Shown: positions 1 through 18,797 of the stretch, one piece after another
How the letters are laid out: every line of letters starts with the position of its first letter
How positions within the stretch are numbered: position 1 is the stretch's first letter
IMG/VR virus record: IMGVR_UViG_2778261058_000016
Span: 1 to 20,834 of that record
Origin: a virus
Taxonomy: Duplodnaviria > Heunggongvirae > Uroviricota > Caudoviricetes
Strand: one strand, 5' to 3'
DNA length: 20,834 bases
Program-made: the position numbers and the translations under genes
Notes under the pieces: generated by a model
Told to the model about the DNA's origin: nothing
Databases searched by the model: none
What the model saw: only the letters and a program-made list of their open reading frames with translations

Positions 1-1182
1 GTGCTCACAGATACTAAGTTACGAAAGTCGCTCGGAAAGCGCAGGGAGAAGGTTGAGGTTCTCTCTGATTCAAACGGACTGAATGTGCGTCTAAGCATAA
101 CCGGTTCTATCACATTCTTCTATCGGTATCGCTGGCTGGGCAAGCCTGTGCAGTTAAGCATTGGTGACTATCCAACTATTTCACTCTCTCAGGCGAGAGA
201 CAGAAGACAGCAGTTCAGAGCGTGGTTGAGCGAGGGGTATGATCCCCGGCAGAAAGTGCTGGTGGAGAAGGCTGAAAGAATAGAAGCGCTGACAGTCGAT
301 GAGGCCTATGAGTACTGGGTGAAGCATTACTGTATCCCGGAGGGGCTCATTAAAATTGATGCGAACGGTAAAAGCTTCAAAAAGCACATTAGCCCGCGGC
401 TAGGGAAGGCTATTGTGGACCAGACAGTGAAGGCGAACTGGCTTGAGGTTTTCGATGCAATGGGGAGGAGTGTCATATCAGGTGAGATGCTGTCTCTGAC
501 CAAGCGTGCTTTCCGGTTCTGCCACAACAGGGGAGTAATCAAAACCAATCCACTGGAGTCGTTACGAAAATCGGATGTCGGTATAGCAGCGAAGATGAAG
601 GAGAGGCGGCTTTCAGATAGTGAGATAAAGCAGGTGTGGGATACTCTTTTCTCTCTGCCTCCCTCTCAACAACTGGTAATCAGGTTCATGATTCTAACCG
701 GATGCCGCGCCGCAGAAATAAGAAAGTCGAGATGGGAGTGGTTCGATTTCAAAGAAAGGTCCTGGACTGTGCCGGCAGAGGATTATAAGACCGGTAAAAC
801 TATTCGTCGTGCGTTGCCGGATACTGCGGTCAGGCTTCTGCAAGAGCATCAACGCGGATCAATCACTAAGCACGTTCTGACTCCAGCACAGTTCCGGGAT
901 AAAGAAGATGTCCCACCTGGGCAGACGCTTGTCTCGACGTACTCAATGCAGGTAGTGCGTAAGAACGGAATGAAGGAGTGGTCATTACATGATTTGCGGA
1001 GAACGGTGGCCACGCGCCTGTCCGAGCTTGGCGCTCCACCACACGTTATAGAAAAGTTGCTCGGACATCAGATGGGCGGGGTTATGGCCAGATACAACCT
1101 TCATGACTATATGGACGATCAGCATGAATGGCTGGATATCTGGCAGAAGCATTTGCAGGAGATTATTGGGTATCCCCTTTAG
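1..1182 (+). CDS. int: Tyrosine recombinase / phage integrase, P4-type, with N-terminal arm-binding region; may lack 1-2 codons at the window edge
   Basis: 393-aa ORF from GTG at position 1. N-terminus LTDTKLRK...FFYRYRW resembles the arm-binding domain of P4-like integrases. C-terminus has HDLRRTVATRL (H-x-x-R) and a downstream Tyr in MARYNLHDY, consistent with the catalytic residues of tyrosine recombinases. Confidence 0.85.
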   Translation: MLTDTKLRKSLGKRREKVEVLSDSNGLNVRLSITGSITFFYRYRWLGKPVQLSIGDYPTISLSQARDRRQQFRAWLSEGYDPRQKVLVEKAERIEALTVDEAYEYWVKHYCIPEGLIKIDANGKSFKKHISPRLGKAIVDQTVKANWLEVFDAMGRSVISGEMLSLTKRAFRFCHNRGVIKTNPLESLRKSDVGIAAKMKERRLSDSEIKQVWDTLFSLPPSQQLVIRFMILTGCRAAEIRKSRWEWFDFKERSWTVPAEDYKTGKTIRRALPDTAVRLLQEHQRGSITKHVLTPAQFRDKEDVPPGQTLVSTYSMQVVRKNGMKEWSLHDLRRTVATRLSELGAPPHVIEKLLGHQMGGVMARYNLHDYMDDQHEWLDIWQKHLQEIIGYPL

Positions 1183-1378
1183 CAAAGTTGACCTTGTCTT
1201 CCCATGACTTGATTTCTGACTCACGCCAGCGCTTCGGATTTCCGGGGATGGTTGGTTTCGGGAATGGGCATGAAAAGCTGGATGGCATACGTGCGGGAGT
1301 GCTCCAGAAATAGAGCGTGCTGCGCGATATTTTGTAGCGCGCAAGGATTTCGCTTGTAACCAGGATGCTGTCATTCAT
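1163..1378 (-). CDS. AlpA-family (Phage_AlpA / MerR-like HTH) regulator or excisionase-like protein, 71 aa
   Basis: I retranslated the minus strand: MNDSILVTSEILARYKISRSTLYFWSTPARMPSSFSCPFPKPTIPGNPKRWRESEIKSWEDKVNFAKGDTQ. The pattern SRSTLY...FPKP...WRESEI..W matches AlpA/Vis-type proteins. ATG at 1378 sits 6 nt after a GGAGA Shine-Dalgarno; the ORF track's 101-aa version (to 1468) is probably an upstream over-extension. The 3' end overlaps the integrase 3' end by 20 nt (convergent). Confidence 0.65.
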   Translation of the reverse strand: MNDSILVTSEILARYKISRSTLYFWSTPARMPSSFSCPFPKPTIPGNPKRWRESEIKSWEDKVNFAKGDTQ

Positions 1379-1387
1379 CTGTGATCT

Positions 1388-1419
1388 CCAGAAAAAGAGC
1401 GCCCGGCGCGGGGCCGGGC
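1388..1419 (-). terminator. GC-rich hairpin (7-bp stem GCCCGGC / GCCGGGC, 5-nt loop) followed on the minus strand by CTCTTTTTCT; intrinsic terminator and/or the sub-terminal hairpin of the IS right end
   Basis: Perfect inverted repeat at 1401..1419 with an A-run at 1392..1396 on the plus strand, which is a T-run downstream of the hairpin on the minus strand. It lies about 85 nt past the tnpB stop and immediately before the alpA-like RBS. Confidence 0.45.
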
Positions 1420-1620
1420 AAAATGGGGGATAACTGAGCAGTGCTTTCGCACCCAATAGCCAGCTCATAACTGGCTATCAGTTGCTTGACATCCTCCCCG
1501 TCCTAAAGGAAGGGGATTCCTACAGCTAGACGGCGATGCCCCGCCGCGAGAATGTTCTTTGCGGCGTTCACGTCGCGGTCATGAGTGGTTCCGCACTCAC
1601 AACAAGTCCATTCTCTTATT
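1391..1620 (-). ncRNA. Putative omega-RNA (TnpB guide RNA) overlapping the tnpB 3' end and the IS right end
   Basis: In IS200/IS605 elements the omega-RNA is encoded across the 3' end of tnpB and the right end. This region holds three hairpins, one spanning the tnpB stop at about 1496..1515, plus those at 1456..1478 and 1401..1419. Extent is a guess and no covariance model was applied. Confidence 0.25.
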
Positions 1621-2594
1621 CGCAGGCCTGCTCTACCTTTCGGACTGTTGGCGGAGATAGCCCCGCAACACGAACAAGCTTGGGTGGAATAACTTTCGTT
1701 GACCACTTCAAACACCACTGACCGCGCAATCGCTTTATATTCCAGTTGTGTTTTGAGCATGAACCAGCCAGCGTCCAAAATGCTTTTTGCCATTTTGGTT
1801 TTAACCAGTTTCTTACTGCTCGCGTCGCCTACGAATATTGCCGCATGGCTGTTAACCAGCGCCGTGCTGTACTTGTGCAGGGCATCTTTGCGGCGGTTCT
1901 TAATTTTGGCGTGTATGGCGCGTACACGGGCTTTTTTGTTTGCACGCTGTGCCTTTCCTAATGCAGGCTCCAGATCTCGATAGAATCTACCGGCAATCAG
2001 CGGATCACCTTCTGACGGGGTGGCGTAGTCTTTCAGCCCTAAATCGATACCCACGGCGGAAGTGGCCGTTGATGGGACAGTTTCGACCTCTACGCAAACA
2101 TTGAAGTACCAGCGTCCACGGCTGTCTTCTGAAAAGCTTCCAGCACGGAATTTAAATCCTCCCAAGCCGTAGCTATCCCAGACATTAAAAATCCTGCCAG
2201 CGAACCGCACCGCGCCATTTTTCCAGACAGCGCTGCCTATTTTAAACGGCACCCAACCCAACGAACGGCGAGATCCCCCACTGACTCGCCAGCGTAAGCG
2301 AGAGCGTTTAAATTGCTTCCGTGCCTTGCCGTGAATTGCTGCGATTTCCTGTACGGTATGGCTGGGGATGGTATACCCGCGCTCTTTTCGCTCTTTAAGG
2401 AGCGGTTTCTGAACATCAAACGCCGATAGCCATTGCGGTTTTTGCGCGCCAAAAAAGCCAGCGTTGCCGTATGCTGCGCTGGTTATCTCGTTTGCCAGAT
2501 TAAAGATCTGATTGACCTCAAAGGCCATCTGCCGCAAAACGGCTGCGTGCTTGTCTTTAATTCGGACAGATAGTGTTTTGATCTGAATGTTCAT
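1503..2594 (-). CDS. tnpB: TnpB, RNA-guided endonuclease of the IS200/IS605 family (RuvC-like domain plus zinc finger)
   Basis: About 363 aa from the ATG at 2594 (MNIQIKTLSV...). RuvC-I-like GIDLGLKDY, and a C-terminal CSCCGAIS...CCECGTTHDRDVNAAKNI (CxxC...CxxC zinc finger with RuvC-III HDRD/NAAKNI). The ORF track's start at 2663 adds 23 unlikely N-terminal residues. Confidence 0.85.
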   Translation of the reverse strand: MNIQIKTLSVRIKDKHAAVLRQMAFEVNQIFNLANEITSAAYGNAGFFGAQKPQWLSAFDVQKPLLKERKERGYTIPSHTVQEIAAIHGKARKQFKRSRLRWRVSGGSRRSLGWVPFKIGSAVWKNGAVRFAGRIFNVWDSYGLGGFKFRAGSFSEDSRGRWYFNVCVEVETVPSTATSAVGIDLGLKDYATPSEGDPLIAGRFYRDLEPALGKAQRANKKARVRAIHAKIKNRRKDALHKYSTALVNSHAAIFVGDASSKKLVKTKMAKSILDAGWFMLKTQLEYKAIARSVVFEVVNESYSTQACSCCGAISANSPKGRAGLRIREWTCCECGTTHDRDVNAAKNILAAGHRRLAVGIPFL

Positions 2595-2684
2595 GGTCGT
2601 ATGTACATATAATGTGTTGATGTTCAGTTGATCGTCGTTATTTGGCGGGATGTCACCCGCCACACGGCGATGCGCTGATGCTGT

Positions 2685-2954
2685 TTACTTCCGCCAGGCG
2701 AAGCTAATTGGCTCCGGCGTAATCCACAGGTGGCGCATGTTCGCCACGTTCACCACATCATAATCCCGCGGGTAAATCTCCACGGCATCCCGATCCCCAT
2801 AGCCAACGGCTGACTTTATCTCCTGCAATGCATCCCAACTGATGCCATCCTTCCACCGGCCAGAGCTGCCAATGCTGGTGGTGTTCACCGTCAGGCGAAT
2901 AACACCGTTCTCTTCCTGAAACTCCTGAACAAGAAAGTAAGAGTTAGCCCACAC
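2685..2954 (-). CDS. Hypothetical protein, 89 aa, leftward, immediately upstream of the IS left end
   Basis: Protein-like composition (MWANSYFLVQEFQEENGVIRLTVNT...EIYPRDYDVVNVANMRHLWITPEPISFAWRK) and no conflicting gene on the other strand. The start is a GTG and the frame stays open upstream without start codons, so this may be the C-terminal remnant of a longer truncated gene. No family recognised. Confidence 0.35.
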   Translation of the reverse strand: MWANSYFLVQEFQEENGVIRLTVNTTSIGSSGRWKDGISWDALQEIKSAVGYGDRDAVEIYPRDYDVVNVANMRHLWITPEPISFAWRK

Positions 2955-3010
2955 GTTGCTCCGCTTGGGGTCGTGGCATCGTACCGGCCATTGCGATTCC
3001 GGTAACCGCG

Positions 3011-3910
3011 ATGTTCCGGGATATCGAGAAGCGATATATCGGCATCAAGCGAGCGCTGAAATCTCTGTTCGACCAGCGCCTTACCGGGCGTGAGCGCGAG
3101 GTTAACAGCCATAACTGGCACTTCCTTTGTCATGACCACGGCGCGGATATGCGCCTCTACCAGGTAAACGCCGGCAAGTTCATCTACGACATGTCGGCGC
3201 AGGAACTGGCGGACCTGCTGGAAGCGGTGCAGGCCATTCTCGACGATTACCTGCTGGATGGTGGCGAGCAAAATCTCTGGGCGATGGATTACGTCGTCGC
3301 AGAAGCGCAGCGCGGCACGCTTGAGGCATTCAATAACCTCTCGCAACAGTCGCAGGTGTATGCCAGTCAGACGACGCTGCAGCAGCTTTTAAGCAGTCCC
3401 GGTCATCTTAATCAGGTGGCAGCGGCAAGGCTGACAACGTTCAGTGACTGGAAGGTCATCAGCGATACAGCCCGCGGCGACCTGACCAACATCATCACCG
3501 ATGCGGTCGCGCGCGGGGTGAACCCTCGCGAGACGGCCAGCGTAATCAGCAAGCGCCTCGATGTGTCGATGTCGAAGGCAAAGACCATCGCTCAGACTGA
3601 GCAGGTCGGCGCACTGCGGCAGGCACAATGGAACGAAACCGACTGGGCTGCTGACCGGCTGGGGCTGAATACCGGCCTACTGTGGTTGTCAGCGCTAAAA
3701 CCAACGACGCGAACCTGGCATGCCAGCCGCCACGGCAAGGTCTACACCACCGAAGAGATTCGGGACTTCTACGCCGAGAACGGCAACCGGTACAACTGCT
3801 ACTGCAGCCAGATCCCAGTGCTGCTCAACGACGACGGCAGCATCTTCAATGAGGGGCTGGCTGAGAAACTGGCGAAAGAGAGGAAAGCTTGGAAATCCGA
3901 GTCGGAGTGA
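3011..3910 (+). CDS. Phage head morphogenesis protein (Mu F-like / SPP1 gp7 family minor head protein)
   Basis: 299 aa. The segment KAKTIAQTEQVGALRQAQWNETDW...TRTWHASRHGKVYTTEE fits the Mu F-like signature (TIA-TE ... W ... R-x-H-x-G-K). First start in frame is ATG 3011, with an in-frame stop at 2945..2947 upstream. Confidence 0.7.
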   Translation: MFRDIEKRYIGIKRALKSLFDQRLTGREREVNSHNWHFLCHDHGADMRLYQVNAGKFIYDMSAQELADLLEAVQAILDDYLLDGGEQNLWAMDYVVAEAQRGTLEAFNNLSQQSQVYASQTTLQQLLSSPGHLNQVAAARLTTFSDWKVISDTARGDLTNIITDAVARGVNPRETASVISKRLDVSMSKAKTIAQTEQVGALRQAQWNETDWAADRLGLNTGLLWLSALKPTTRTWHASRHGKVYTTEEIRDFYAENGNRYNCYCSQIPVLLNDDGSIFNEGLAEKLAKERKAWKSESE

Positions 3911-3949
3911 TATCATCATGTAAATGATAAAGTTGCTTAAGGGTGAGCA

Positions 3950-4465
3950 ATGAGCAGTGTAACTCCGGCAGAAGTCGGTTCATTCTTTTTATCTCTAGTT
4001 GTTCCAATCACCACTGGGGTTGTGGCAGCAGGATTTACTGCATTTTTCGCTCTGAATCGATTTTACAAAGAAAAATGGTGGGAGAAGAAACATGCTGCGT
4101 ACAATCAATTAATTGATAAATTATTTGAAATCAAAGCAATTTATTCCCACGCCTCAGATTTTTACGAGGCTGAATACAATGCTGGTATGTATGGTAGGCC
4201 GCCGCCGAAAGGGTCTGTTGATTGGAATACATTCCATCAAATAAAAGCGCAACTCCATCGGTTTTATGTGCTCGCACCAATCTCTCTAAGCAATAATACA
4301 AGGGATTTGCTCAATAATTTCTTCAAGCAGGACGCTGATTCCGATCATAGTGTTTACGAAGAGGGTTACCCAGATTTTGTGGCATACAATGATATGACGA
4401 TTGCGACCCAGCAACTTATTGATGCCATTGTCTTGGACGCTGAAAAAGAACTTAAATTTAAATAA
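3950..4465 (+). CDS. Membrane-anchored hypothetical protein, 171 aa (N-terminal TM helix plus soluble domain); AT-rich moron
   Basis: RBS AAGGGTGAG upstream of ATG 3950. N-terminal hydrophobic helix FFLSLVVPITTGVVAAGFTAFFAL followed by a charged/aromatic soluble region. Visibly lower GC than the flanking phage genes, and followed by its own terminator. No family recognised. Confidence 0.6.
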   Translation: MSSVTPAEVGSFFLSLVVPITTGVVAAGFTAFFALNRFYKEKWWEKKHAAYNQLIDKLFEIKAIYSHASDFYEAEYNAGMYGRPPPKGSVDWNTFHQIKAQLHRFYVLAPISLSNNTRDLLNNFFKQDADSDHSVYEEGYPDFVAYNDMTIATQQLIDAIVLDAEKELKFK

Positions 4466-4480
4466 CCTCAGAGCTCCTGA

Positions 4481-4503
4481 AGGTCGCTACGGCGGCCTTT
4501 TTT
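4481..4503 (+). terminator. Rho-independent terminator after the membrane-protein moron
   Basis: Hairpin AGGTCGC-tacg-GCGGCCT (7-bp stem including one G-U wobble) followed by TTTTTT, starting 16 nt after the TAA at 4463..4465. Confidence 0.55.
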
Positions 4504-4534
4504 ATTGCCAGATATCCAATAACGAGGACCCAGC

Positions 4535-5923
4535 ATGAAACGCAACCGCGTTAACGTGCTGACCGTCGTCAACTCCGCTTCAAACATCACCACTGAAACC
4601 ATCGACGGCAAGCCACATATCGTGGTTCGCGGCATCACGCCTGTCGTGGACGATATTGTGATGAACCGGAAGTTGTACCCGGCAGCCGAAATCGAAAAGG
4701 CCTACAACACACTCGAGCGCAACCCGATGCCGCTGGGCCATCCGAAAGTGGACGGCAAGCATGTTTCGGCGCGCGATGTCCGGGCGGTGAATGAGTATCA
4801 CGTCGGGGCATGGCTGCAGAACGTCAGCCACAAAGACGGGAAAGTGACGGGCGATATGTACGTTAACCGCCAGTACGCCGAATCCAGCGACAAGGGCAAG
4901 CGCCTGATTAACCGTCTGGATGAGATGTTGGCTGGTACCAACTCCGACCCGATCCACATCTCAACCGGTCTGCTGTATTCCGGCATCGCCGCCAATGGTG
5001 AGTCGAAGGGCAAGAAGTACAACGAGATCGCCACCAACATGATGTTTGACCATGTGGCGGTGCTGCTCGATGAGCCTGGCGCGGGTACGCCGGAGGATGG
5101 CGTGGGCATCTTCGTTAACTCTGAAGGTGATGAGCAGCAGATTGAAGTTGCCCGTCTGGCTGATGGCATCGACTGTACCCGAGACGGCCTGCTCAACAAG
5201 ACCAAATTCTTCTTCACCAATGCCTCTAATTTCTCTTTCGACGATATCTCCCGCGCTATCAGCGACAAGCTGCGCGAGGGTGACACCGAAGATAAGTGGC
5301 TTTGGTCTGAAACGGTGTGGCCGGACAGCTTCATCTACCGCAATGACACCAAATACCTGAAACAGAAGTACCTCATCGATGATGACGGCAAGGCCGTGTT
5401 CGTCGGCGAACCTGTAGAAGTCGTGCGCAAACCCACTGAGTACGAGATTAAAACCAACGGAGAGAACGATCCGATGAAAGAACTGATTATCAATGCGCTG
5501 CAAGCCGCTGGTAAGCCGACTGAAGGCAAGTCCGACGCCGAGCTGATGGACGCATACAACCAGATGAAGGCCGAAGAAGCCACCGCCAAGAAAAAAGGCG
5601 ATGAAGAAATCGACCCGGAAACCGGCAAGCCCAAGAAAAAAGAGCAGGCCGCCAATAACGAAGAGATGCCAGCGTGGGCGCAGAAACTCGCCGATCGCGT
5701 GGACGTCGTTTTCAACAGCCTGAGCGCTAACGCCGATAAAGAGAAAGGCGAAAAGCGCGCGGCTGTGAAGCTGGCGATGAACATGAGCGACGACGAAGTC
5801 GCGGATCTGGACGGTAAGGCGCTCGACGCCATGTACGCCAAGTGCCAGACATCTTTCGGCCTGAACGGTGCATTCCGCCATCAGGCAACCAACACCCAAT
5901 CAGTCAGCGAAATGCCGGAGTAA
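4535..5923 (+). CDS. Putative prohead scaffolding/protease-like protein (DUF2213-like N-terminal domain, charged C-terminal tail)
   Basis: 462 aa with GAGGA RBS 6 nt upstream. N-terminal pattern HIVVRGITPVVDDIVMNRKLYPAAEI...PLGHPKVDGKHVSA recalls the DUF2213 phage family. C-terminus is highly charged (KKKGDEEIDPETGKPKKKEQ), typical of scaffold proteins. Sits between the head morphogenesis and decoration/capsid genes. Confidence 0.5.
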   Translation: MKRNRVNVLTVVNSASNITTETIDGKPHIVVRGITPVVDDIVMNRKLYPAAEIEKAYNTLERNPMPLGHPKVDGKHVSARDVRAVNEYHVGAWLQNVSHKDGKVTGDMYVNRQYAESSDKGKRLINRLDEMLAGTNSDPIHISTGLLYSGIAANGESKGKKYNEIATNMMFDHVAVLLDEPGAGTPEDGVGIFVNSEGDEQQIEVARLADGIDCTRDGLLNKTKFFFTNASNFSFDDISRAISDKLREGDTEDKWLWSETVWPDSFIYRNDTKYLKQKYLIDDDGKAVFVGEPVEVVRKPTEYEIKTNGENDPMKELIINALQAAGKPTEGKSDAELMDAYNQMKAEEATAKKKGDEEIDPETGKPKKKEQAANNEEMPAWAQKLADRVDVVFNSLSANADKEKGEKRAAVKLAMNMSDDEVADLDGKALDAMYAKCQTSFGLNGAFRHQATNTQSVSEMPE

Positions 5924-5926
5924 AAA

Positions 5927-6361
5927 ATGGCTAAAGACGGAAAGCATATTATCCACGCCGGCGGCGTGTTCCCTAATCCGCTGCTTAACCGCGAAGGCGG
6001 GGCGGCTGCATCGACTCTGCCTGGTACTGTTGGCTTCTTCAGTACTGCTGACAAGTTCACGGCCTCTGTGGTCGGGGCAGAATCCGCCATCAAGTATGTG
6101 GCAAACAAAGACTACCTGCGCTGCCTGAGTGTTGATGACGCAATCCCAGCCAATGAATTGGTTGTTGGTATTCATCCGCTGCCTGGCATGTTCCTAAATG
6201 TGCGAGCAGCAGCGGGCACTTACACCAAAGGCCAGCCGGTTGCAGTAGCCAACGGTCAGATCACTGCGGTTGTAGATGATGTCGCCGTATTCGCTTATGT
6301 CGAAGAAGATAAAGCAGTCACTGCGGTGGCGGGCGATCTGATTCGCGTTGTGTTCAAATAA
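5927..6361 (+). CDS. Head decoration / capsid cement-like protein
   Basis: 144 aa, Gly/Ala/Val-rich, immediately upstream of the major capsid gene. Size and position parallel lambda gpD-type or DUF2190-type decoration proteins. Starts 4 nt after the upstream stop. Confidence 0.5.
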   Translation: MAKDGKHIIHAGGVFPNPLLNREGGAAASTLPGTVGFFSTADKFTASVVGAESAIKYVANKDYLRCLSVDDAIPANELVVGIHPLPGMFLNVRAAAGTYTKGQPVAVANGQITAVVDDVAVFAYVEEDKAVTAVAGDLIRVVFK

Positions 6362-6371
6362 GGAGCACTGA

Positions 6372-7469
6372 ATGTTTGTATTCTCCAAGTCTATCGGCGA
6401 GAAGACCGGTAACCTCGCGGTAAACCAGGCGCAATGGCGCGCTCTCGAACTTGAGCGAAACGCCAGTGCTCAGGCAGCAGCTGATTTTCTGGCGCGCACT
6501 CAGTTCCGTGGTGATGCAGAAAACGCCCCTTATCTCGACGCGGTGAACGCAGTTGACGATATCCGCCGCCTGTATCGCGCTTTCGACACAACTGTGCTTC
6601 AGCAGTTCGAGCCAAATACCGAATTCACCCTGCTGAACGATCTGATGCCGCTCTCTCGCTCCGTGCGAATTGAGCAGTCTCGTTACGATTACGCTCGTAC
6701 CGGCGGCCGCGGCTGGGCTCATACTTCCATGTCCGGTCAGGTTGGTGCGGCGCTGGATGCTCGCAGCTATTCCTTCGATGGCACCATGGTACCTATTCAC
6801 GACTCGGGCTTTAAGTTCGAATGGCGTGATCCAATCTTCAACAGCCCACAGGCATTGCAGTCGCAGGCTGATGCGCAGCGTGGTTCGGTTGAAGACGTTC
6901 AGCGTCGTTACGTTGACTACATCTTCAACGGCTTCCGCGACAAAGCTGGCAACTTCGCAGTGTTTGACGGTCTGACCTGGAAAGGGTTGCGTGACGATGA
7001 GCGCGTAGCGCAGATCGACCTTGGCGCTTCAGGCCTGAACATCGATTTTACCTCTGGCACAGCAACGTCTCAGGACATCCGCGCCGGGGCAATCGTGCTT
7101 CGTGATCAGATGCGTCGCGTAAACAACCAGTATGCAGAGCAGACCTGGTATGTATCCGGCGAAATCATCTCCAACCTGGAACGCTACTTCTCCGACAACT
7201 TCCAGTCCGGAACGATCATGGATGAAATCCTGAAGCTGACCGGTGTAGCGGCGATTAAAGAAGACAGCCAACTGTCAGGTAACGAAATCGTCATCGTTCC
7301 ACTGAGTGCAGGTGTCATTGCTCCAATCGTCGGCCAGGCTATCGGTACCGTTGCATCTCCGCGTCCTGAGTACAACAGCGACTACATCTGGCGCACCTGG
7401 GGTGCAATGGGGTTGATGGTCAAGCAGGACATCAACAACAAATACTCCGTAATTCACGCATCAAGCTAA
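6372..7469 (+). CDS. Major capsid protein
   Basis: 365 aa, preceded by AAGGAG RBS, in the canonical position after the scaffold and decoration genes and before the head-tail joining genes. Assignment is by synteny and size rather than a recognised motif. Confidence 0.6.
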   Translation: MFVFSKSIGEKTGNLAVNQAQWRALELERNASAQAAADFLARTQFRGDAENAPYLDAVNAVDDIRRLYRAFDTTVLQQFEPNTEFTLLNDLMPLSRSVRIEQSRYDYARTGGRGWAHTSMSGQVGAALDARSYSFDGTMVPIHDSGFKFEWRDPIFNSPQALQSQADAQRGSVEDVQRRYVDYIFNGFRDKAGNFAVFDGLTWKGLRDDERVAQIDLGASGLNIDFTSGTATSQDIRAGAIVLRDQMRRVNNQYAEQTWYVSGEIISNLERYFSDNFQSGTIMDEILKLTGVAAIKEDSQLSGNEIVIVPLSAGVIAPIVGQAIGTVASPRPEYNSDYIWRTWGAMGLMVKQDINNKYSVIHASS

Positions 7470-7478
7470 GGATAAATC

Positions 7479-7844
7479 ATGGCACTGGTAGAAATCGTGG
7501 CAAGTAACCTGCACGCCGGTGCCAATCTCCGCAAACTGGAGGTTGGTTCGGTGGTGGATGTTGACGACGCAACGGCTGAGCGCTGGATCAGCGCTGGCAA
7601 GGCGAAGCAAACCGACAAGAAGAAAGGCGAGAAGCTTACCTTCGAAGTGGCAACTCCGTCCGCGCAGGCGGCAGACCTTTCTGGCCTGCAAAAGCAACTC
7701 GCCGACGCGCTGGAGCAGAACCAAAAGCTAATCGCCGATGGTGAAGCAAAAGACAAGGCTCACGCCGACGCACTGGCAGCAGAAACAAAACGCGCTGACG
7801 AAGCCGAAGCGGCATTGGCGGAAGCAACCAAGAAGGCGAAATAA
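7479..7844 (+). CDS. Hypothetical head-associated protein with Ala/Lys/Glu-rich coiled-coil C-terminus
   Basis: 121 aa, RBS AAGGA upstream. C-terminal half LQKQLADALEQNQKLIADGEAKDKAHADALAAETKRADEAEAALAEATKKAK is strongly helical and charged. Confidence 0.5.
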   Translation: MALVEIVASNLHAGANLRKLEVGSVVDVDDATAERWISAGKAKQTDKKKGEKLTFEVATPSAQAADLSGLQKQLADALEQNQKLIADGEAKDKAHADALAAETKRADEAEAALAEATKKAK

Positions 7845-7846
7845 CC

Positions 7847-8227
7847 ATGGCTGACCCAATCACAGCGGCAGACGTGCAGGCGTACCTCGGTGAATTGGGT
7901 TACACCATTCCCATGGCGTTGCTGGATCCAATTCTCTGCGCGGTCAACAAAATTATCCCGTGCCTCGATGGTGCGGGGTATGACGAGTGCACTGCAAAGC
8001 TGATTCTGATGTACGCCGCCGCGCTTATGGCTACGTCGTCTGGTGCGCGCCGCATCAAATCACAGGGTGCGCCGTCTGGCGCGTCCCGCTCGTTTGAATA
8101 TGGTGACGACAGCATTACCTGGCTGCGCGACTCGTTGGCTCGTCTCGATACCAGCGGATGCACCGGTGAGTTACCGATCAGCGCTGGTAATAGTGTCGGC
8201 CTGTTCATGGTGGTCGGGGGCTGCTGA
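7847..8227 (+). CDS. Head-tail connector / DNA packaging (gp6-like) candidate
   Basis: 126 aa, starts 3 nt after the upstream stop, in the block of small genes between capsid and tail genes. Assigned by synteny. Confidence 0.45.
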   Translation: MADPITAADVQAYLGELGYTIPMALLDPILCAVNKIIPCLDGAGYDECTAKLILMYAAALMATSSGARRIKSQGAPSGASRSFEYGDDSITWLRDSLARLDTSGCTGELPISAGNSVGLFMVVGGC

Positions 8228-8400
8228 TGACGTACAAATCAGTTAAGCACGGCCTGCCGCGCTCATTCACCCGCGTCTGGGTGATGACCGACACAGGGCG
8301 GGAGACAACCGGTTACGTTAAGTCGGACGGCGAGTGGTTCATCAACTGCCCGCGCATCCGGGCGACTGGCGCCGCTGTGCTGCGATGGAGGGATGACTGA
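8227..8400 (+). CDS. Small hypothetical protein, 57 aa, translationally coupled at both ends
   Basis: Not in the ORF track (under 60 aa). Manual translation gives MTYKSVKHGLPRSFTRVWVMTDTGRETTGYVKSDGEWFINCPRIRATGAAVLRWRDD. Its ATG overlaps the upstream stop (TGATG at 8225..8229) and its stop overlaps the next ATG (TGATG at 8398..8402). Confidence 0.4.
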   Translation: MTYKSVKHGLPRSFTRVWVMTDTGRETTGYVKSDGEWFINCPRIRATGAAVLRWRDD

Positions 8401-8747
8401 TGTCGTCAACCGCTAATTGGTCATACACCGCGACGGCGACAATCTGGCGCAATCTCGGTAACGATGAATACGGTGACTCGCTCGGCTTCTCTGCCCCTGA
8501 GTCGATTCTCTGTGATTACGAAGGTGGCCTGTCAAAGCGCATCGGCAATATCGGATCTGAAATCGTCGTGAAGAATACCGTTTGGACTGAGTATGCACTG
8601 GCAGCGGCGGGTGATTACCTGCTGATTGGCCAGTCAACCGAATCCGATCCGGTTGTCGCCGGAGCAGACGAGGTGCGGCAGGTTATCCGCTACGCCGACA
8701 TGTTCGAGCGCCTAGTGGATGATTACGCCATCCTGACGGGGGTGTAG
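8400..8747 (+). CDS. Head-tail joining / head closure protein candidate (lambda FII-like position)
   Basis: 115 aa, translationally coupled to neighbours. Size and position match head-tail adaptor proteins. Confidence 0.45.
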   Translation: MSSTANWSYTATATIWRNLGNDEYGDSLGFSAPESILCDYEGGLSKRIGNIGSEIVVKNTVWTEYALAAAGDYLLIGQSTESDPVVAGADEVRQVIRYADMFERLVDDYAILTGV

Positions 8748-8749
8748 CC

Positions 8750-9214
8750 ATGGGCATCAAAGTGAAGGGCGTTAGCCAGGCGAAAAAGCACCTGAACGAT
8801 GTCATCAACGACGTGAAGTGGCGCAAGGTGATTCGCGCGCTGCAGTCGGCGATGATTCTCATCGGGGCACGGGCAGCCTATTACACCCCGATCGACACCT
8901 CTACGCTGATTAACAGCCAGTTTCGCGAAATTGACGCTGGCGGCGTGTTCATCACCGGGCGCATCGGTTACTCAGCAAACTATGCCGCGTACGTTCATGA
9001 GGCGTCAGGCAAGCTGAAAGGTCAGCCGCGCGCGCACTTTGGTATAACCAGCAACCGATCTGAGTTCGGTCCGCAGAAACCGAAAGAGTTCGGCGGCGGC
9101 ACCGGAAAGGGCAACTACTGGGATCCGCACGGTGAACCGCAATTCCTGACCAAAGGCGCGAATGATGAGCGCGATAACGTTGATGCGGTGATGCGCAAGG
9201 AGCTTTCGCTATGA
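8750..9214 (+). CDS. Tail completion protein candidate (HK97 gp10-like / lambda Z-like position)
   Basis: 154 aa. N-terminus MGIKVKGVSQAKKHLNDVINDVKWRKVIRALQSA resembles the start of HK97 gp10-family proteins. Overlaps the next gene by ATGA. Confidence 0.45.
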   Translation: MGIKVKGVSQAKKHLNDVINDVKWRKVIRALQSAMILIGARAAYYTPIDTSTLINSQFREIDAGGVFITGRIGYSANYAAYVHEASGKLKGQPRAHFGITSNRSEFGPQKPKEFGGGTGKGNYWDPHGEPQFLTKGANDERDNVDAVMRKELSL

Positions 9215-9594
9215 CACCCATGATGCACGAGCGGGTGCGCAACATGTTCGGCGACGCCGGGCTAACTACCGGTTTCACGGTGCAGCAGCTGATGTACGAC
9301 GACCCGGGAGACCTGTCGAAGGCGATCATGGTGTTCAGGCCTAACGGCGGATCGTATATTCGGACTGACCTCGGCTCTGAGTATCACGTCCTGGTCGACG
9401 TCGTAGGCGCAAAAGATAAGCGCAAAGACGCACTCAATGCCGTACAGCGCATCGTCGATTACGTCCAGGCCAACCCCATGGCTGACGAGTGCGTCGGCTA
9501 CATCCAGAACATGGGCGCAATTCCCGCGCCGGTGCTCACAGAAGAAGGGCGAATAGTCTTCAGACTCCAGTTCGCCTGCACTTACGGCGAATAG
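9211..9594 (+). CDS. Tail terminator candidate (lambda U-like position)
   Basis: 127 aa, last gene before the major tail protein, followed by a terminator hairpin. Confidence 0.45.
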   Translation: MTPMMHERVRNMFGDAGLTTGFTVQQLMYDDPGDLSKAIMVFRPNGGSYIRTDLGSEYHVLVDVVGAKDKRKDALNAVQRIVDYVQANPMADECVGYIQNMGAIPAPVLTEEGRIVFRLQFACTYGE

Positions 9595-9609
9595 CCATCC
9601 CAACCAAAT

Positions 9610-9635
9610 AACCCGCTTCGGCGGGTTTTCTTTTT
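9610..9635 (+). terminator. Rho-independent terminator (CCCGC-ttcg-GCGGG hairpin plus T-run)
   Basis: AACCCGCTTCGGCGGGTTTTCTTTTT directly after the stop at 9594. The same 20-mer core recurs at 11961..11980. Confidence 0.6.
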
Positions 9636-9657
9636 ATACGTCAAAGAGGAGTTTCAA

Positions 9658-10401
9658 ATGGCTAATTGCCAGAACTCGAACGAACGCCTGTTCGGCGGTG
9701 CGGTCGTGCTGGAAGTCGCCGATGGCTGCCCGGATGTCAAACCACTCGAATCTGAGTGGAAGGCGCTGGCTGCTGGTACGTCGAAAGGCTTCGACTTCAA
9801 CCCTAACTCGGTTACCTCTGATGCGGATGACGGCGGCGGCTATGTCGAGACCATCATCACCAACAGTGACTTCACCCTGAGCTTTGAAGGTGAAGTGCGC
9901 AAGAAGGACAAACTGGACCAGTACGGTGTCGGCAAGTTCATCAAGTATTTCGCTGATGAGCTGAAGGCTAAGCGCCAGCCAGGTATCTGGGTGCGCATGG
10001 ACTACGGTCCGATTGAATTCATCGGCTACATGAACATTAACGCGTTGAGTTCTGACGGTGGCACTAACGATATCGTCACGTTCTCTACTGAGTTCAAGGT
10101 CGGTGACGCGAGCACTATCGAAGTGAACGAAATCACTGCGGTAGCAGTGACTGGTGTGACGGTAACCCCGACTACCAGCACTGGCGCGGCTGGCGGTACC
10201 AGCACCTTCACGGTGAATATCGCACCAACCGGCGCAACAAATACTGGCTTCACCGTCGCTTCAACCGATCCCACCAAAGCCACTGCCACGGCATCAGGTA
10301 CTACCGTCACGGTTAACCGTGTGGCGACCGGCAGCGCGCAGATCATCATCAACACCGAAGACGGCAACTTTGTGGCCGTGCATACGGTAACAGTTACTTA
10401 A
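9658..10401 (+). CDS. Major tail protein with C-terminal Ig-like (Big_2-type) domain, lambda gpV-like
   Basis: 247 aa, strong RBS AGAGGAG. C-terminal about 90 aa (ITAVAVTGVTVTPTTSTGAAGGTSTFTVNIAPTGATNTGFTVASTDPTKATATASGTTVTVNRVATGSAQIIINTEDGNFVAVHTVTVT) has the alternating Thr/Val beta-sandwich pattern of bacterial Ig-like domains, as in lambda gpV. Confidence 0.7.
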   Translation: MANCQNSNERLFGGAVVLEVADGCPDVKPLESEWKALAAGTSKGFDFNPNSVTSDADDGGGYVETIITNSDFTLSFEGEVRKKDKLDQYGVGKFIKYFADELKAKRQPGIWVRMDYGPIEFIGYMNINALSSDGGTNDIVTFSTEFKVGDASTIEVNEITAVAVTGVTVTPTTSTGAAGGTSTFTVNIAPTGATNTGFTVASTDPTKATATASGTTVTVNRVATGSAQIIINTEDGNFVAVHTVTVT

Positions 10402-10458
10402 CGGACATTCCAAAGGGTGGCGTGCCGCCCTTGATAATGACCGTTTACTGGAAGGCCT

Positions 10459-11130
10459 ATGACCGCTTTAACAGATATTGGCGAACTCTCTATCAGCGAC
10501 AGCCGCGAAGGCGGGAAAGATTACCTGTTACGGCCGTCATTCGAGGCTATGGCGAGAATCGGCACTCCGGAAGAGATTGTGCAGGCGTATGCCACCATCC
10601 ACGGGAATGATGTCGCTCAACTCATTGAGGTGTGCACCGGCGGGCTGGGCCGCTTTCCTGAATGGCTATCACCTTCATTCAACCGCGCCGCTGAGAAGCT
10701 GTTATCAACGTGCATGCTTGTGCTGCAGGCGTGTTGTGATGATGACCTGACGCCAATGATTGGCGAATGGAAAGGGTGGCGACATTGTGTCGTCTACCGC
10801 CCGGGCCAGATGCCGAAGAACGACATCATCGTACTGGCGCAGCACCTCATGCAGCACGGGGTCGTAGGTAAAGCCAAAGTTCGACAGTTGCAGCGTCACG
10901 AGACTGACGAGCGCACTACCGAGTTTAAAGCCTTCGACTACATCAGCGCGGCACGAAGTCACTTCGGCATGAATCGCGCCGAAGCTTCGCAGCTAACGAT
11001 GACCGAATTTCAGATGCTGCTGGCCACGAAATACCCGGACCAGAAAGGTTTCACTCGCGAAGAGTACGACAGCATCGCCGACGAATACCTGGCTAAACAG
11101 GCCGCGCGCAGGGCACAAGTTAGTAGTTAA
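10459..11130 (+). CDS. Tail assembly chaperone candidate (G/GT-like position)
   Basis: 223 aa, RBS GGAAGG upstream, located between major tail and tape measure genes. I found no slippery heptamer or extended -1 frame, so a canonical G/GT frameshift product is not evident. Confidence 0.4.
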   Translation: MTALTDIGELSISDSREGGKDYLLRPSFEAMARIGTPEEIVQAYATIHGNDVAQLIEVCTGGLGRFPEWLSPSFNRAAEKLLSTCMLVLQACCDDDLTPMIGEWKGWRHCVVYRPGQMPKNDIIVLAQHLMQHGVVGKAKVRQLQRHETDERTTEFKAFDYISAARSHFGMNRAEASQLTMTEFQMLLATKYPDQKGFTREEYDSIADEYLAKQAARRAQVSS

Positions 11131-11176
11131 TAAAATGAAATTTACAAAATTACCTTTTATTTTGCACTAGCCATAC

Positions 11177-11205
11177 TTGCAGGGTTATTGAGTAGGAGTT
11201 ATAGT
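11177..11205 (+). promoter_or_regulatory. Putative sigma70-type promoter for the NYN-domain gene (TTGCAG - 17 nt - TATAGT)
   Basis: -35-like TTGCAG at 11177..11182 and -10-like TATAGT at 11200..11205 with 17-nt spacing, in an AT-rich intergenic stretch about 105 nt upstream of ATG 11310. Sequence-only prediction. Confidence 0.4.
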
Positions 11206-11309
11206 TCGCAACAATGATGTGGGCGGCTCGCACCCCATACAAGTGAGGTTTACCTCCGCGAGCCTAACCCACCACTCTCCCTCTAATTCCCCGAATTCGG
11301 TTAATAAAA

Positions 11310-11942
11310 ATGGAAAGACAGTACGCAGTACTTCTTGACGCAGGGTTCTTGCGCCGAAAATTAGGTACTCAGGCAGCACCAATGACAGCTCAAAATGTCG
11401 AAGATTTAGTTAATAAAATTAAAGCACGAGCTGAGTTATTAGGGATGCGGTTGTATCGTGTGTTTTATTACGACGCTGAGCCTTTCACGGGTACTAAGAC
11501 ACATCCTATATCCAACGCTGTTATTAACTTTGGCGCTACACAAATGGCCATTGATTGTAATACATTGTTAGATGAGCTTAAGGTCAAGCCTTTTTTTGCT
11601 GTGCGCCTAGGGGAACTCAATTTTAGAGGGTGGAAGGTTTCTGATGCTGCTCTTCAGTCAGGTGCAGGAGGGACGGCAACAATTAATGCTCATAATGTTT
11701 CTCCCAATCTTCAGCAGAAAGGTGTGGATATGAGGATCGCATTAGATATCTCATCTATGACTTTAAAAAACCAAGCAGACGTTTTTTGCTTGGTAACAGG
11801 TGACTCAGATTTTGCACCCATCATCAAATTTGCGAGATCTGAAGGAAAGCAAGTATTCACTTATACTCTCGGTCATAGAGTCAAACCATCTTTGCCTATT
11901 CATTCTGACCTCCATATCCCTGAAACGTACGCTAATTTGTAA
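11310..11942 (+). CDS. NYN-domain (PIN-like, LabA/YacP-type) putative ribonuclease, 210 aa; AT-rich moron
   Basis: N-terminal first-strand motif YAVLLDAGFL (acidic residue in the first beta strand), central KGVDMRIALDI, and CLVTGDSDFAPIIKFARSEGKQVF (GDSDF), matching conserved acidic motifs of NYN/PIN-like nucleases. Visibly much lower GC than the flanking chaperone and tape-measure genes, with its own promoter-like element and a downstream terminator. Confidence 0.75.
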   Translation: MERQYAVLLDAGFLRRKLGTQAAPMTAQNVEDLVNKIKARAELLGMRLYRVFYYDAEPFTGTKTHPISNAVINFGATQMAIDCNTLLDELKVKPFFAVRLGELNFRGWKVSDAALQSGAGGTATINAHNVSPNLQQKGVDMRIALDISSMTLKNQADVFCLVTGDSDFAPIIKFARSEGKQVFTYTLGHRVKPSLPIHSDLHIPETYANL

Positions 11943-11958
11943 ACTTTAATCATTTCTT

Positions 11959-11983
11959 AAAACCCGCTTCGGCGGGTTTTTTT
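11959..11983 (+). terminator. Rho-independent, near-palindromic (potentially bidirectional) terminator after the NYN gene
   Basis: AAAACCCGCTTCGGCGGGTTTTTTT: 5-bp GC stem with TTCG loop, flanked by an A-run upstream and a 7-T run downstream. Begins 17 nt after the TAA at 11940..11942 and ends 16 nt before the tape-measure ATG. Confidence 0.65.
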
Positions 11984-11999
11984 ATGTCCGGAGAACGAC

Positions 12000-18739: not shown

Positions 18740-18761
18740 GAACCGTCCCCGACCAACCAAA

Positions 18762-18786
18762 CCCGGCCACCGTGCCGGGTTTTTTT
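18762..18786 (+). terminator. Rho-independent terminator (CCCGGC-caccgt-GCCGGG plus 7 T)
   Basis: Perfect 6-bp GC stem followed by TTTTTTT, 23 nt after the TAA ending the J-like gene. Confidence 0.6.
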
Positions 18787-18797
18787 ATGGAATCAAT

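What the first reader, a model, noticed from the sequence alone, without database searches (positions are those of the whole stretch)
1183..3010. Prophage appears truncated: integrase abuts the head morphogenesis gene with no terminase, portal, lysis or immunity genes between
In lambda-like genomes the Mu F-like head morphogenesis gene normally follows the terminase and portal genes. Here the roughly 1.8 kb between the integrase and that gene holds only alpA, the IS, and an 89-aa leftward ORF whose frame stays open upstream without a start codon, as expected for a 3' fragment left by a deletion. On the plus strand no open frame long enough to be a portal 3' end remains upstream of ATG 3011. 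This points to a cryptic, packaging-deficient prophage, possibly created by an IS-associated deletion, that retains intact tail genes and cargo. The missing modules could instead lie to the right of the window.
Basis: inference. Interest (0 to 1): 0.45.

Follow-up and report, generated by a model that had tools for sequence, protein, structure and literature searches.

The report
Prophage gutted by one internal deletion
This is an ordinary defective E. coli prophage: one deletion of about 22 kb removed its control, replication, lysis and DNA-packaging genes. The only unusual point is that two other strains carry different deletions that reuse the same breakpoints.

Summary
Between the integrase (1-1182) and the MuF-like minor head gene (3011-3910) there are only an AlpA-like gene, a TnpB-only IS and an 89-aa gene. 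Intact prophages 99.9% identical on both sides sit at the same yciA/yciB site in other E. coli. They have the order int-alpA-TnpB-DUF7694-DUF4222-early genes-repressor-replication-nin-Q-lysis-terS-terL-portal-MuF.

The window has one junction at 3004|3005, with GGTA microhomology at 3001-3004. It removes 22,225 bp relative to GCA_045609385.1. A contig 100% identical to the whole window (Logan SRR3989737_31) shows only cargo genes and then yciB to the right of the tailspike. The missing modules are therefore absent, not relocated.

- The 89-aa ORF is a complete DUF7694 gene. The real fragment is 61 nt of DUF4222 (2944-3004).
- The IS is ancestral and ends about 400 bp from the junction, so the deletion is not IS-mediated.
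- The TipJ-like tail gene carries a 1-nt frameshift at 17045.

One point is unexplained. Two other strains have different deletions that reuse the same left or right breakpoint to within 4 bp or less. Overall this is an ordinary defective prophage of low interest.

The parts
1..1182 (+). P4-type tyrosine integrase (393 aa). This is the left end of the prophage, next to host yciA.
   Evidence: Pfam Arm-DNA-bind_3 plus Phage_integrase. yciA lies immediately upstream in relatives and in the source-like contig.
1163..1378 (-). AlpA-like small helix-turn-helix gene (71 aa), a probable excision/regulatory factor.
   Evidence: PGAP annotates it as 'helix-turn-helix transcriptional regulator' in relatives. 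It has no Pfam hit at E<=0.01. It occurs in 1195 blocks of the collection.
1486..2605 (-). IS200/IS605-family element carrying tnpB only (ORF 1503-2594, or 2663 from the GTG start), with no tnpA. It is ancestral to this phage lineage and is not at the junction.
   Evidence: Pfam OrfB_IS605 plus Cas12f1-like_TNB. The right end at 1485/1486 comes from MB20, which lacks the IS, and from a plasmid copy. The left end at about 2600-2605 is where similarity to the plasmid copy stops. The position is the same in intact prophages.
2685..2954 (-). Complete DUF7694 gene (89 aa, GTG start).
   Evidence: Pfam DUF7694, E=4.8e-16, covering model positions 7-65 of 66. Its coordinates match the gene annotated in the intact prophage. 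Phage homologues align over the full length.
2944..3004 (-). Remnant of the DUF4222 gene: only its last 61 nt (about 20 codons). This is the gene actually cut by the deletion.
   Evidence: In strain 53, DUF4222 occupies L002 22944-23258. Identity to intact relatives ends at window 3004.
3001..3004 (.). Deletion junction. GGTA is a microhomology shared by both parents. The left parent ends at 3004 and unique right-parent sequence starts at 3005.
   Evidence: The left parent is 100% identical over 2600-3004. Right parents L016, L017, L019, L021 and L025 are 100% identical over 3001-3400.
3005..3010 (+). Last 6 nt of the portal-MuF intergenic spacer. The native upstream AGG of AGCAGGTAACCGCG is replaced by CGG.
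   Evidence: Alignment to intact parents and to Klebsiella phage ST101-KPC2phi6.1, where the portal ends 31 nt before the ATG.
3011..3910 (+). MuF-like minor head (head morphogenesis) protein, 299 aa. The ORF is probably intact, but it has lost its late promoter and most of its 5' leader.
   Evidence: Pfam Phage_Mu_F. The same 299-aa product is called just after the portal stop in many intact prophages and in phage ST101-KPC2phi6.1. PGAP instead-334 aa versions that overlap the portal.
3950..4465 (+). 171-aa cargo ('moron') gene of unknown function in a low-GC patch, bracketed by a promoter-like site (3889-3916) and a terminator-like hairpin (4479-4500).
   Evidence: It is present in 712 blocks of the collection, always after MuF.
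4535..7469 (+). Head genes: DUF2213 protein (4535-5923), 144-aa protein (5927-6361) and major capsid protein DUF6260 (6372-7469).
   Evidence: Pfam. PGAP names in relatives.
7479..16276 (+). Head-tail and tail genes: DUF7370, tail terminator (9211-9594), Ig-like tail tube (9658-10401), DUF6246 (10459-11130), NYN-domain cargo gene (11310-11942), tape measure (12000-14930), two small tail genes, and NlpC/P60 (15860-16276).
   Evidence: Pfam. Annotation of A14. 98.9-99.95% identity to relatives.
16263..18739 (+). TipJ-like host-specificity tail tip gene, split into 272-aa and 561-aa ORFs by a 1-nt deletion (GGG to GG) at 17045. It is a pseudogene.
   Evidence: The only indel against intact 825-aa homologues lies here. 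The same frameshift is present in 3 contigs.
18798..20834 (+). Tailspike (678 aa). The window ends at its stop codon.
   Evidence: Pfam Tail_spike_N, Beta_helix and NosD. The same 678-aa gene is in L012 and L051.

Best explanation
The window is the left four-fifths of a defective lambdoid prophage of about 25 kb, integrated at the 3' end of yciB between yciA and yciB in E. coli.

It descends from an intact prophage of about 47-49 kb with this order: int-alpA-TnpB-DUF7694-DUF4222-ASCH-TraR-exo-bet-gam-kil...repressor/cro-replication-nin-Q-tRNA-holin/lysozyme/spanin-terS-terL-portal-MuF-head-tail-tailspike-cargo.

One illegitimate, homology-independent recombination event joined CCGGTA, in the 3' end of DUF4222, to ACCGCG, 6 nt upstream of the MuF start codon. 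The two sites share a 4-bp microhomology GGTA, or 7 of 8 bases if one bulged base is allowed (GGTA-CCG against GGTAACCG). The event removed about 22-24 kb.

Shown: the junction, the parents, the lost genes and the absence of those genes elsewhere in the element.

Inferred:
- The event was a break repaired by RecA-independent, microhomology-assisted end joining.
- The remnant cannot be induced, replicate, lyse or package.
- Its head and tail genes are now silent, because the Q antiterminator and the Q-holin region, where lambdoid late promoters lie, are gone. The self-contained cargo genes and int/alpA may still be expressed.
- The deletion is recent, because the flanks differ from intact relatives by 0.07% or less. 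A frameshift in the TipJ-like gene is the first sign of later decay.
For: Left side:
- Window 1-3004 is 99.9-100% identical to intact prophages in strain 53, 23CRST004, GCA_045609385.1 and others.

Right side:
- Window 3001-14465 is 99.965% identical to L016, and 5860-20834 is 99.95% identical to L006 and L012. L006 and L016 come from GCA_045609385.1, whose left arm (L027) is also 99.93% identical.

Junction:
- It was read base by base.
- The deleted length is 22,225 bp in GCA_045609385.1 and 23,981 bp in 23CRST004.
- The deleted genes are listed from RefSeq annotation.

Source strain:
- Logan SRR3989737_31 is 100.000% identical to window 1-11923 and 6263-20834.
- It is bounded by tonB-yciA on the left. 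On the right it carries acyltransferase, a 102-aa ORF, UmuD-like, UmuC-like and SRAP genes, then yciB-yciC-ompW.

Other points:
- The K-12 empty site has yciA directly next to yciB.
- The gene order terminase-portal-MuF-171aa was found in every intact relative examined.
- No promoter-like site lies upstream of MuF.
- In E. coli, RecA-independent illegitimate recombination at microhomologies after break resection is established (PMC11372144, PMC3375238).
Against: - The repair pathway is inferred from the junction sequence alone. Four bp of microhomology is short; the lambda Spi- assay literature quotes about 9 bp (PMC11372144).
- Silence of the late genes is inferred from the loss of Q and of the region where the late promoter would lie, not measured. 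Read-through from int cannot be excluded.
- The reuse of both breakpoints in other strains suggests the breaks were not random. The simple model does not explain this.
Confidence: 0.93

Rival explanations
1. IS-mediated deletion: the TnpB-carrying IS200/IS605 element, or its RNA-guided nuclease, caused the deletion.
For: An IS lies between int and the junction. In a relative, A14/L071, a different deletion has its left endpoint inside tnpB.
Against: - The IS and the adjacent DUF7694 gene are at the same position in at least 15 intact prophages, next to three different integrases.
- IS-to-IS similarity ends at about 2605, roughly 400 bp from the junction, with a complete gene in between.
- No tnpA is present in the window.
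- The 16-20-nt guide expected from the right-end flank (GCAACTGATAGCCAGTTATG) has no match with fewer than 3 mismatches anywhere other than its own site. None of its weaker matches lies near either breakpoint.
Confidence: 0.03
2. Different gene order rather than deletion: the packaging, lysis and immunity genes lie to the right of the tailspike or to the left of the integrase.
For: None, beyond the fact that the window ends at the tailspike stop codon.
Against: A contig 100% identical to the window shows yciA immediately to the left. To the right it shows only acyltransferase, a 102-aa ORF, UmuD/UmuC-like and SRAP genes, then yciB. All relatives have the same right end.
Confidence: 0.01
3. Site-directed or hot-spot breakage: the two breakpoints are preferred cleavage or stalling sites. 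Candidates are a nuclease or restriction activity at GGT(N)ACC-like palindromes, or a hairpin-prone site. On this view the deletion is one of a family of recurrent, semi-programmed prophage-disabling deletions.
For: - L025 (GCA_035787855.1) joins the same left site, CCGGTACC|TCCGATCG, with the crossover in TACC at window-equivalent 3003-3006, to GGTTACC inside a nin-region phosphatase gene.
- L040 (GCA_021697395.1) joins an internal point of the 323-aa gene next to gam to exactly window-equivalent 3005, GGCTT|ACCGCGATG.
- The left site is the centre of a perfect 10-bp palindrome, CCGGTACCGG, and the foot of a hairpin with a 7-bp stem and an 11-nt loop.
- Both partners of the left site are GGTNACC. 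That motif occurs only 4 times in the 24-kb deleted interval.
- By my rough estimate from a 25-kb interval, the chance of two coincident endpoint pairs among four deletion types is about 1e-5.
Against: - Only one reuse of each site was seen.
- 15 of 16 other copies of each site are intact.
- No further variants were found in 5,426 complete E. coli genomes or among 3 metagenome hits.
- The hairpin is no more stable than shuffled sequence, z = -0.6 to -0.8.
- The L040 junction has no microhomology, and its left site is not GGT(N)ACC-like.
- The fourth deletion type (A14) uses neither site.
- The att core is unrelated, so Int pseudo-sites are unlikely.
Confidence: 0.2
4. Functional domesticated element: the remnant is kept for a particle-related function such as a satellite, a tailocin or a gene-transfer agent.
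For: int and alpA are retained, most head and tail ORFs are intact, and the arrangement is present in 3 contigs.
Against: - There is no portal, terminase, lysis, replication or regulatory gene.
- The Q-holin region, where the late promoter would lie, is deleted.
- The TipJ-like gene is frameshifted.
- Flanks that are 99.93% identical or better to intact relatives indicate a recent event, not long-term maintenance.
Confidence: 0.03

Closest known systems
Intact yciA/yciB-site lambdoid prophages of E. coli: strain 53 (NZ_CP048359), 23CRST004 (NZ_AP045762) and GCA_045609385.1
   Same: Same integration site, same integrase-alpA-TnpB-DUF7694 left end (99.8-99.97% identity) and the same head-tail module. 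GCA_045609385.1 is 99.95% identical in that module.
   Different: They keep the 22-24 kb carrying early, immunity, replication, nin, Q, lysis, terminase and portal genes that the window lacks. Strain 53 and 23CRST004 have mosaic, more divergent tail regions.
Cryptic lambdoid prophages of E. coli K-12 (DLP12, Rac, Qin, e14)
   Same: Integrated phage remnants that have lost the genes needed to make progeny but retain some phage genes and cargo. This is the definition in PMC6832061; the names are from my own knowledge.
   Different: Those are old, multiply deleted and IS-ridden. Here a single datable deletion and one frameshift separate the remnant from a living relative, and nearly the whole virion module is still present.
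Sister deletion derivatives of the same prophage: A14/L071 type, L025 type and L040 type
   Same: Same lineage (98.9-100% identity in the shared DNA) and same chromosomal site. Each has one large internal deletion.
   Different: The junctions differ. A14 runs from inside tnpB to inside the portal. L025 runs from the same left site to the nin region, so it keeps lysis, terminase and portal. L040 runs from the 323-aa gene to the same right site, so it keeps exo, bet and gam.
Klebsiella phage ST101-KPC2phi6.1 and Enterobacter phage ENT1 (temperate siphoviruses)
   Same: Homologous portal-MuF-DUF2213-capsid-tail module at 79-93% nucleotide identity. A MuF start codon at the position of window 3011 is annotated in phage ST101-KPC2phi6.1.
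   Different: These are deposited as complete phage genomes; ST101-KPC2phi6.1 carries terminase and portal directly upstream of MuF, while the ENT1 record is unannotated. Their hosts and early regions are different.
RecA-independent illegitimate recombination in E. coli (lambda Spi-/lambda bio type events)
   Same: Joining of non-homologous DNA at short microhomologies after break resection, with a prophage as substrate (PMC11372144, PMC3375238).
   Different: Those events are aberrant excisions with one endpoint in host DNA and microhomologies of about 9 bp. Here both endpoints are inside the prophage and the exact microhomology is 4 bp. The pathway was not tested.

Membership tests
Defective (cryptic) prophage formed by internal deletion | Phage DNA integrated at an attachment site between host genes that are adjacent in strains without the phage. 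| tested here: met
   yciA | element | yciB in the source-like contig. yciA and yciB are adjacent in K-12.
Defective (cryptic) prophage formed by internal deletion | A collinear intact relative exists, and the element differs from it by a mappable deletion junction. | tested here: met
   Both flanks are 99.9% identical to GCA_045609385.1. The junction is at 3004|3005 and 22,225 bp are missing.
Defective (cryptic) prophage formed by internal deletion | Loss of genes essential for induction, replication, lysis or packaging. | tested here: met
   Repressor/cro, replication, Q, holin/lysozyme/spanin, terS, terL and portal all lie in the deleted interval. They are absent from the window and from the source contig.
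Defective (cryptic) prophage formed by internal deletion | Inability to produce infectious particles. | not testable with these tools
   Needs an induction experiment. It is predicted from the gene content.
IS-mediated adjacent deletion | One deletion endpoint coincides with a terminus of the IS. | tested here: not met
   The IS ends are at 1485/1486 and about 2605. The junction is at 3004, with the complete DUF7694 gene in between.
IS-mediated adjacent deletion | The IS insertion is specific to the deleted lineage or preceded the deletion as a new event. | tested here: not met
   The same IS sits at the same position in at least 15 intact prophages at several integration sites.
Phage satellite (PICI / P4-like) | A compact island with int, its own replication/primase module and capsid- or packaging-redirecting genes, and without a full virion gene set. 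| tested here: not met
   It has no replication or packaging genes and carries a near-complete head-tail module collinear with an intact phage.
Tailocin / gene-transfer-agent-like domesticated particle | Intact tail (or head plus tail) genes together with lysis and regulatory genes under host control. | tested here: not met
   The lysis and regulatory genes are deleted. The TipJ-like tail tip gene is frameshifted.

The most novel reading that the evidence does not exclude
The deletion may be one of a set of recurrent, site-preferring deletions in this widespread E. coli prophage. The palindrome CCGGTACCGG in DUF4222 and the GGTAACC motif 6 nt before the MuF start codon would be preferred break points. 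Possible causes are an unidentified nuclease or restriction-like activity acting on GGT(N)ACC-type sites, or a structure-prone site. Hosts would then disable the prophage repeatedly, in different strains, at the same base pairs.
Probability: 0.2. Interest if true: 0.45.

Novelty: new member of a known kind. Interest (0 to 1): 0.2.

Why it matters
On its own this matters little. It is a clean example of how a prophage becomes cryptic: one illegitimate recombination event removes every gene that is dangerous to the host or needed for spread, and leaves integrase, cargo genes and an orphaned virion module.

Its value is as a well-dated pair. An intact relative and its remnant are 99.9% identical, with the junction known to the base. 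That makes it a convenient natural system for studying early prophage decay.

The reuse of both breakpoints in independent strains is a small but testable lead on whether prophage-inactivating deletions are random or occur at hot spots.

For annotation, it gives three corrections. The 89-aa gene is complete. The MuF start codon is probably ATG 3011 rather than the longer form that overlaps the portal. The TipJ-like gene is a pseudogene.

Tried and rejected
- Exact-junction and right-site patterns in GTDB species representatives gave 0 hits in both scans. The source is not a species representative genome.
- The left-site pattern in JGI metagenomes gave 3 hits, all intact.
- 300-bp probes across the intact left and right sites against 5,426 complete E. 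coli genomes found no further deletion variants.
- Rfam over the whole window gave no family at gathering score, so no curated omega-RNA/IS605 motif was detected.
- TnpB-guided cleavage: the putative guide from the right-end flank has no near match at any breakpoint. Rejected.
- Integrase acting on pseudo-att sites: the attL and attR flanks share no long repeat. Integration is at the yciB 3' end, and the sequence there is unrelated to GGTAACC. Rejected, though on weak evidence.
- Hairpin at the left site: it is predicted on both strands but is no more stable than shuffled controls. Left as a weak possibility.
- Derivation of the window junction from the L040 or L025 junction by a second deletion or by homologous exchange: rejected. 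The window keeps the intact parental GGTAACCGCG, and each variant keeps DNA that the others lack.
- Microhomology at the A14-type junction could not be assessed, because no close intact right parent was among the fetched loci.
- Local alignment of the four breakpoint contexts found only short similarities of chance level beyond GGT(N)ACC.
Full report
**Observation**

The window opens at the start codon of a P4-type integrase (1-1182, +) and closes at the stop codon of a tailspike (18798-20834, +). Between the integrase and the Phage_Mu_F minor head gene (3011-3910, +) there are only three leftward genes:
- an AlpA-like 71-aa gene (1163-1378)
- a TnpB/InsQ gene (1503-2594, or 2663 from the GTG start)
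- an 89-aa DUF7694 gene (2685-2954)

The rest of the window is a head-tail module. It holds a DUF2213 protein, the major capsid protein DUF6260, a tail terminator, an Ig-like tube protein, DUF6246, a tape measure, NlpC/P60, a TipJ-like protein and the tailspike. Two cargo genes are interspersed. No tRNA and no Rfam family was found.

**What it derives from**

Megablast against complete E. coli genomes showed that window 1-3008 is 99.8-99.9% identical to several chromosomes, and that the similarity stops abruptly there. In strain 53 the same integrase lies next to yciA. It is followed by alpA, TnpB, DUF7694 and DUF4222, then a full lambdoid genome:
- exo, bet and gam
- a LexA-like repressor
- replication genes and the nin region
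- Q, then holins and an endolysin
- small and large terminase subunits
- a DUF1073 portal, then the minor head gene and the tail genes

The prophage ends at yciB. Strain 23CRST004 gives the same picture and adds a tRNA-Thr between Q and the holin.

Draft genome GCA_045609385.1 carries an intact copy that is 99.93% identical to window 1-3008, 99.965% identical to 3001-14465 and 99.95% identical to 5860-19794. It is effectively the undeleted ancestor.

**The junction**

Base-by-base comparison gives these results:
- The left parent matches through window 3004 (...GCGATTCCGGTA, then CCGGCTTGAG in the parent).
- Five right parents match at 100% from 3001 (...AAAGCAGGTA, then ACCGCGATGTTCC).

The junction is therefore 3004|3005, with the 4-bp microhomology GGTA. 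If one bulged base is allowed, GGTA-CCG pairs with GGTAACCG.

The left break lies in the last 61 nt of the DUF4222 gene. The right break lies in the 31-nt spacer between the portal stop and the MuF ATG, 6 nt before that ATG. The missing segment is 22,225 bp in GCA_045609385.1 and 23,981 bp in 23CRST004.

**Are the missing modules elsewhere?**

The TipJ-like gene of the window carries a private 1-nt deletion. Looking up its 272-aa N-terminal product found a 50-kb contig, Logan SRR3989737_31, that is 100.000% identical to window 6263-20834. A second look-up with the 462-aa head protein returned the same contig, 100.000% identical to window 1-11923 including the junction.

In that contig the element is bounded on the left by tonB-yciA. 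To the right of the tailspike it continues with an acyltransferase, a 102-aa ORF, UmuD-like and UmuC-like genes and an SRAP peptidase. Then come yciB, yciC and ompW. The whole element is about 25.1 kb.

In K-12, yciA and yciB are adjacent.

1. The 89-aa ORF is not a fragment.
   - It coincides with the complete gene annotated in intact prophages.
   - It spans nearly the whole DUF7694 model.
   - Homologues in Vibrio and Gordonia phages cover residues 1-89.
   - It has GGAG 4-5 nt upstream of its GTG.
   - The gene that was cut is DUF4222.

2. The IS is not implicated.
   - Its right end is at 1485/1486, defined by MB20, which lacks it, and by a plasmid copy.
   - Similarity between copies ends at about 2605.
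   - The block TnpB-DUF7694-DUF4222 is present unchanged in at least 15 intact prophages, next to three different integrases.
   - The junction is about 400 bp away.
   - The guide sequence expected for this TnpB has no near match at any breakpoint.

3. The tail genes are not all intact. GGG to GG at 17045 splits the 825-aa TipJ homologue into 272-aa and 561-aa ORFs. The change is present in three contigs, so it is probably real.

4. The MuF ORF is probably complete. ATG 3011 is the start annotated in Klebsiella phage ST101-KPC2phi6.1. It is also the start called in many intact prophages, right after the portal stop. PGAP prefers 327-334-aa forms that overlap the portal by 50-75 nt.

**Mechanism and consequences**

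Shown: a single junction between two unrelated positions that share 4 bp.

Inferred: a break repaired by RecA-independent, microhomology-assisted joining of the kind described for E. coli illegitimate recombination (PMC11372144, PMC3375238).

The deletion removes the repressor/cro switch, the replication genes, Q, the Q-holin region where a lambdoid late promoter is expected, all lysis genes, both terminase subunits and the portal. From this I infer three things:
- The element cannot be induced, replicate, lyse the cell or package DNA.
- Its head and tail genes are transcriptionally orphaned. No promoter-like site lies upstream of MuF.
- The integrase and alpA, and self-contained cargo genes, may still be expressed. 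These are the 171-aa gene with a promoter-like site at 3889-3916 and a terminator at 4479-4500, the NYN gene, and the acyltransferase and UmuDC-like genes beyond the window.

The near identity to intact relatives indicates a recent event. The TipJ frameshift is the first sign of later decay.

**An unexplained pattern**

Four deletion derivatives of this prophage turned up:
- the window type, in 3 contigs
- the A14/L071 type, from inside tnpB to inside the portal
- L025
- L040

L025 joins CCGGTACC to TCCGATCG. Its crossover lies in TACC at window-equivalent 3003-3006, which is the same left site as in the window. Its partner is GGTTACC in a nin-region phosphatase gene. L040 joins an internal point of the 323-aa gene beside gam to exactly window-equivalent 3005, the same right site, with no microhomology.

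None of these variants can be derived from another, because each keeps DNA the others lack and the window keeps the parental GGTAACCGCG. Two coincidences within 4 bp or less in a 22-24 kb interval are unlikely by chance. My rough estimate is about 1e-5 for both.

Evidence pointing towards a hot spot:
- The left site is the centre of a perfect palindrome, CCGGTACCGG, and the foot of a hairpin with a 7-bp stem.
- Both of its partners are GGTNACC, a motif present only four times in the deleted interval. Partner choice therefore looks homology-driven.

Evidence against, or limits on it:
- The hairpin is no more stable than shuffled sequence.
- 15 of 16 other copies of each site are intact.
- No further variants were found in complete genomes or in metagenomes.
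- An integrase pseudo-site and TnpB targeting are not supported.

I treat a break hot spot as a 20% possibility that a junction census could settle.

**Comparison and verdict**

This is a defective prophage of the familiar kind: cryptic prophages that have lost the genes for progeny production but retain others (PMC6832061). It fails the tests for an IS-mediated deletion, a phage satellite, a tailocin-like element and an alternative gene order.

It is a new, precisely mapped member of a known kind. It is of low interest in itself, and carries a modest side lead in the reused breakpoints.

Noticed in passing
window 3001-3005; L025 1150-1165; L040 9990-10005: Independent deletion derivatives of the same prophage in other strains reuse the window's left breakpoint (L025, GCA_035787855.1) or its right breakpoint (L040, GCA_021697395.1) to within 4 bp or less. 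The left site is the palindrome CCGGTACCGG, and both of its partners are GGTNACC motifs.
   Followed up: partly
window 17045 (ORFs 16263-17081 and 17054-18739): A 1-nt deletion (ATGGGCCTGG to ATGGCCTGG) frameshifts the TipJ-like host-specificity gene, which is 825 aa and intact in all relatives. The same change is present in 3 contigs of the public collection.
   Followed up: yes
window 1486-2605; L032, L033, L036: A TnpB-only IS200/IS605 element with no tnpA sits at exactly the same position, beside DUF7694 and DUF4222, in many intact lambdoid prophages. These prophages have different integrases and integration sites (yciA, a pfkB-region site, fliE). It therefore behaves as a fixed resident of the phage left arm rather than a recent insertion. 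Its right-end hairpin is retained in a plasmid copy that is 84% identical; two base changes there make the stem perfect.
   Followed up: partly
window 3889-4500: A 171-aa gene with no Pfam family lies in a low-GC patch, bracketed by a promoter-like site (3889-3916) and a terminator-like hairpin (4479-4500). This is the classic layout of a cargo 'moron' gene. It occurs in 712 blocks of the collection, always between MuF and the DUF2213 gene. Some relatives carry other genes in this slot, for example a Lit-family exclusion protein in strain M10.
   Followed up: partly
window 11130-12000: A low-GC island (GC 0.43) between the DUF6246 gene and the tape measure carries a NYN-domain gene (11310-11942). 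In relatives the same slot holds KilA-N, SocA_Panacea, BamE/XhlA-like or no genes, so it is a variable cargo slot.
   Followed up: partly
window 3011; L001 23413-24396; L016 8957-9961: The start codon of the MuF-like gene is annotated inconsistently. Some annotations give 299 aa starting 31 nt after the portal stop. PGAP and some gene callers give 327-334 aa overlapping the portal by 50-75 nt. Both deletion variants that keep only 6 nt upstream (the window and L040) preserve the 299-aa form.
   Followed up: partly
L001 22374-23459 (E. coli A14): RefSeq annotates the truncated 3' part of the portal gene in A14 as an 'anti-CBASS protein Acb1 family protein' pseudogene. The full-length homologues are annotated as DUF1073/Phage_portal_3 portals. 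Either the name is misleading or the portal family carries an Acb1-like region.
   Followed up: no
L051 14587-18586 (right of the window in the source-like contig): The right-end cargo of the prophage comprises an acyltransferase_3 gene on the opposite strand (probably O-antigen modification, next to the tailspike), a UmuD-like/UmuC-like Y-family polymerase pair and an SRAP peptidase gene, immediately before yciB.
   Followed up: no
L064 640-670; L040 3440-3600; L051 18840-18870: The prophage integrates into the 3' end of yciB. The K-12 sequence continues into attL (GGTTAGGATTTATCTTCCTG...), while at attR the phage supplies a different yciB 3' end.
   Followed up: partly
window 14309-14320: A 12-nt in-frame insertion in the tape-measure gene relative to A14 (976 aa against 972 aa).
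   Followed up: no
window 3005-3154: The first 150 nt of the MuF gene are of different ancestry from A14: only weakly similar there (no blastn or megablast alignment), against 98.9% identity from 3155 onward. They are 100% identical to GCA_045609385.1. This marks a mosaic boundary inside the gene at 3155.
   Followed up: partly
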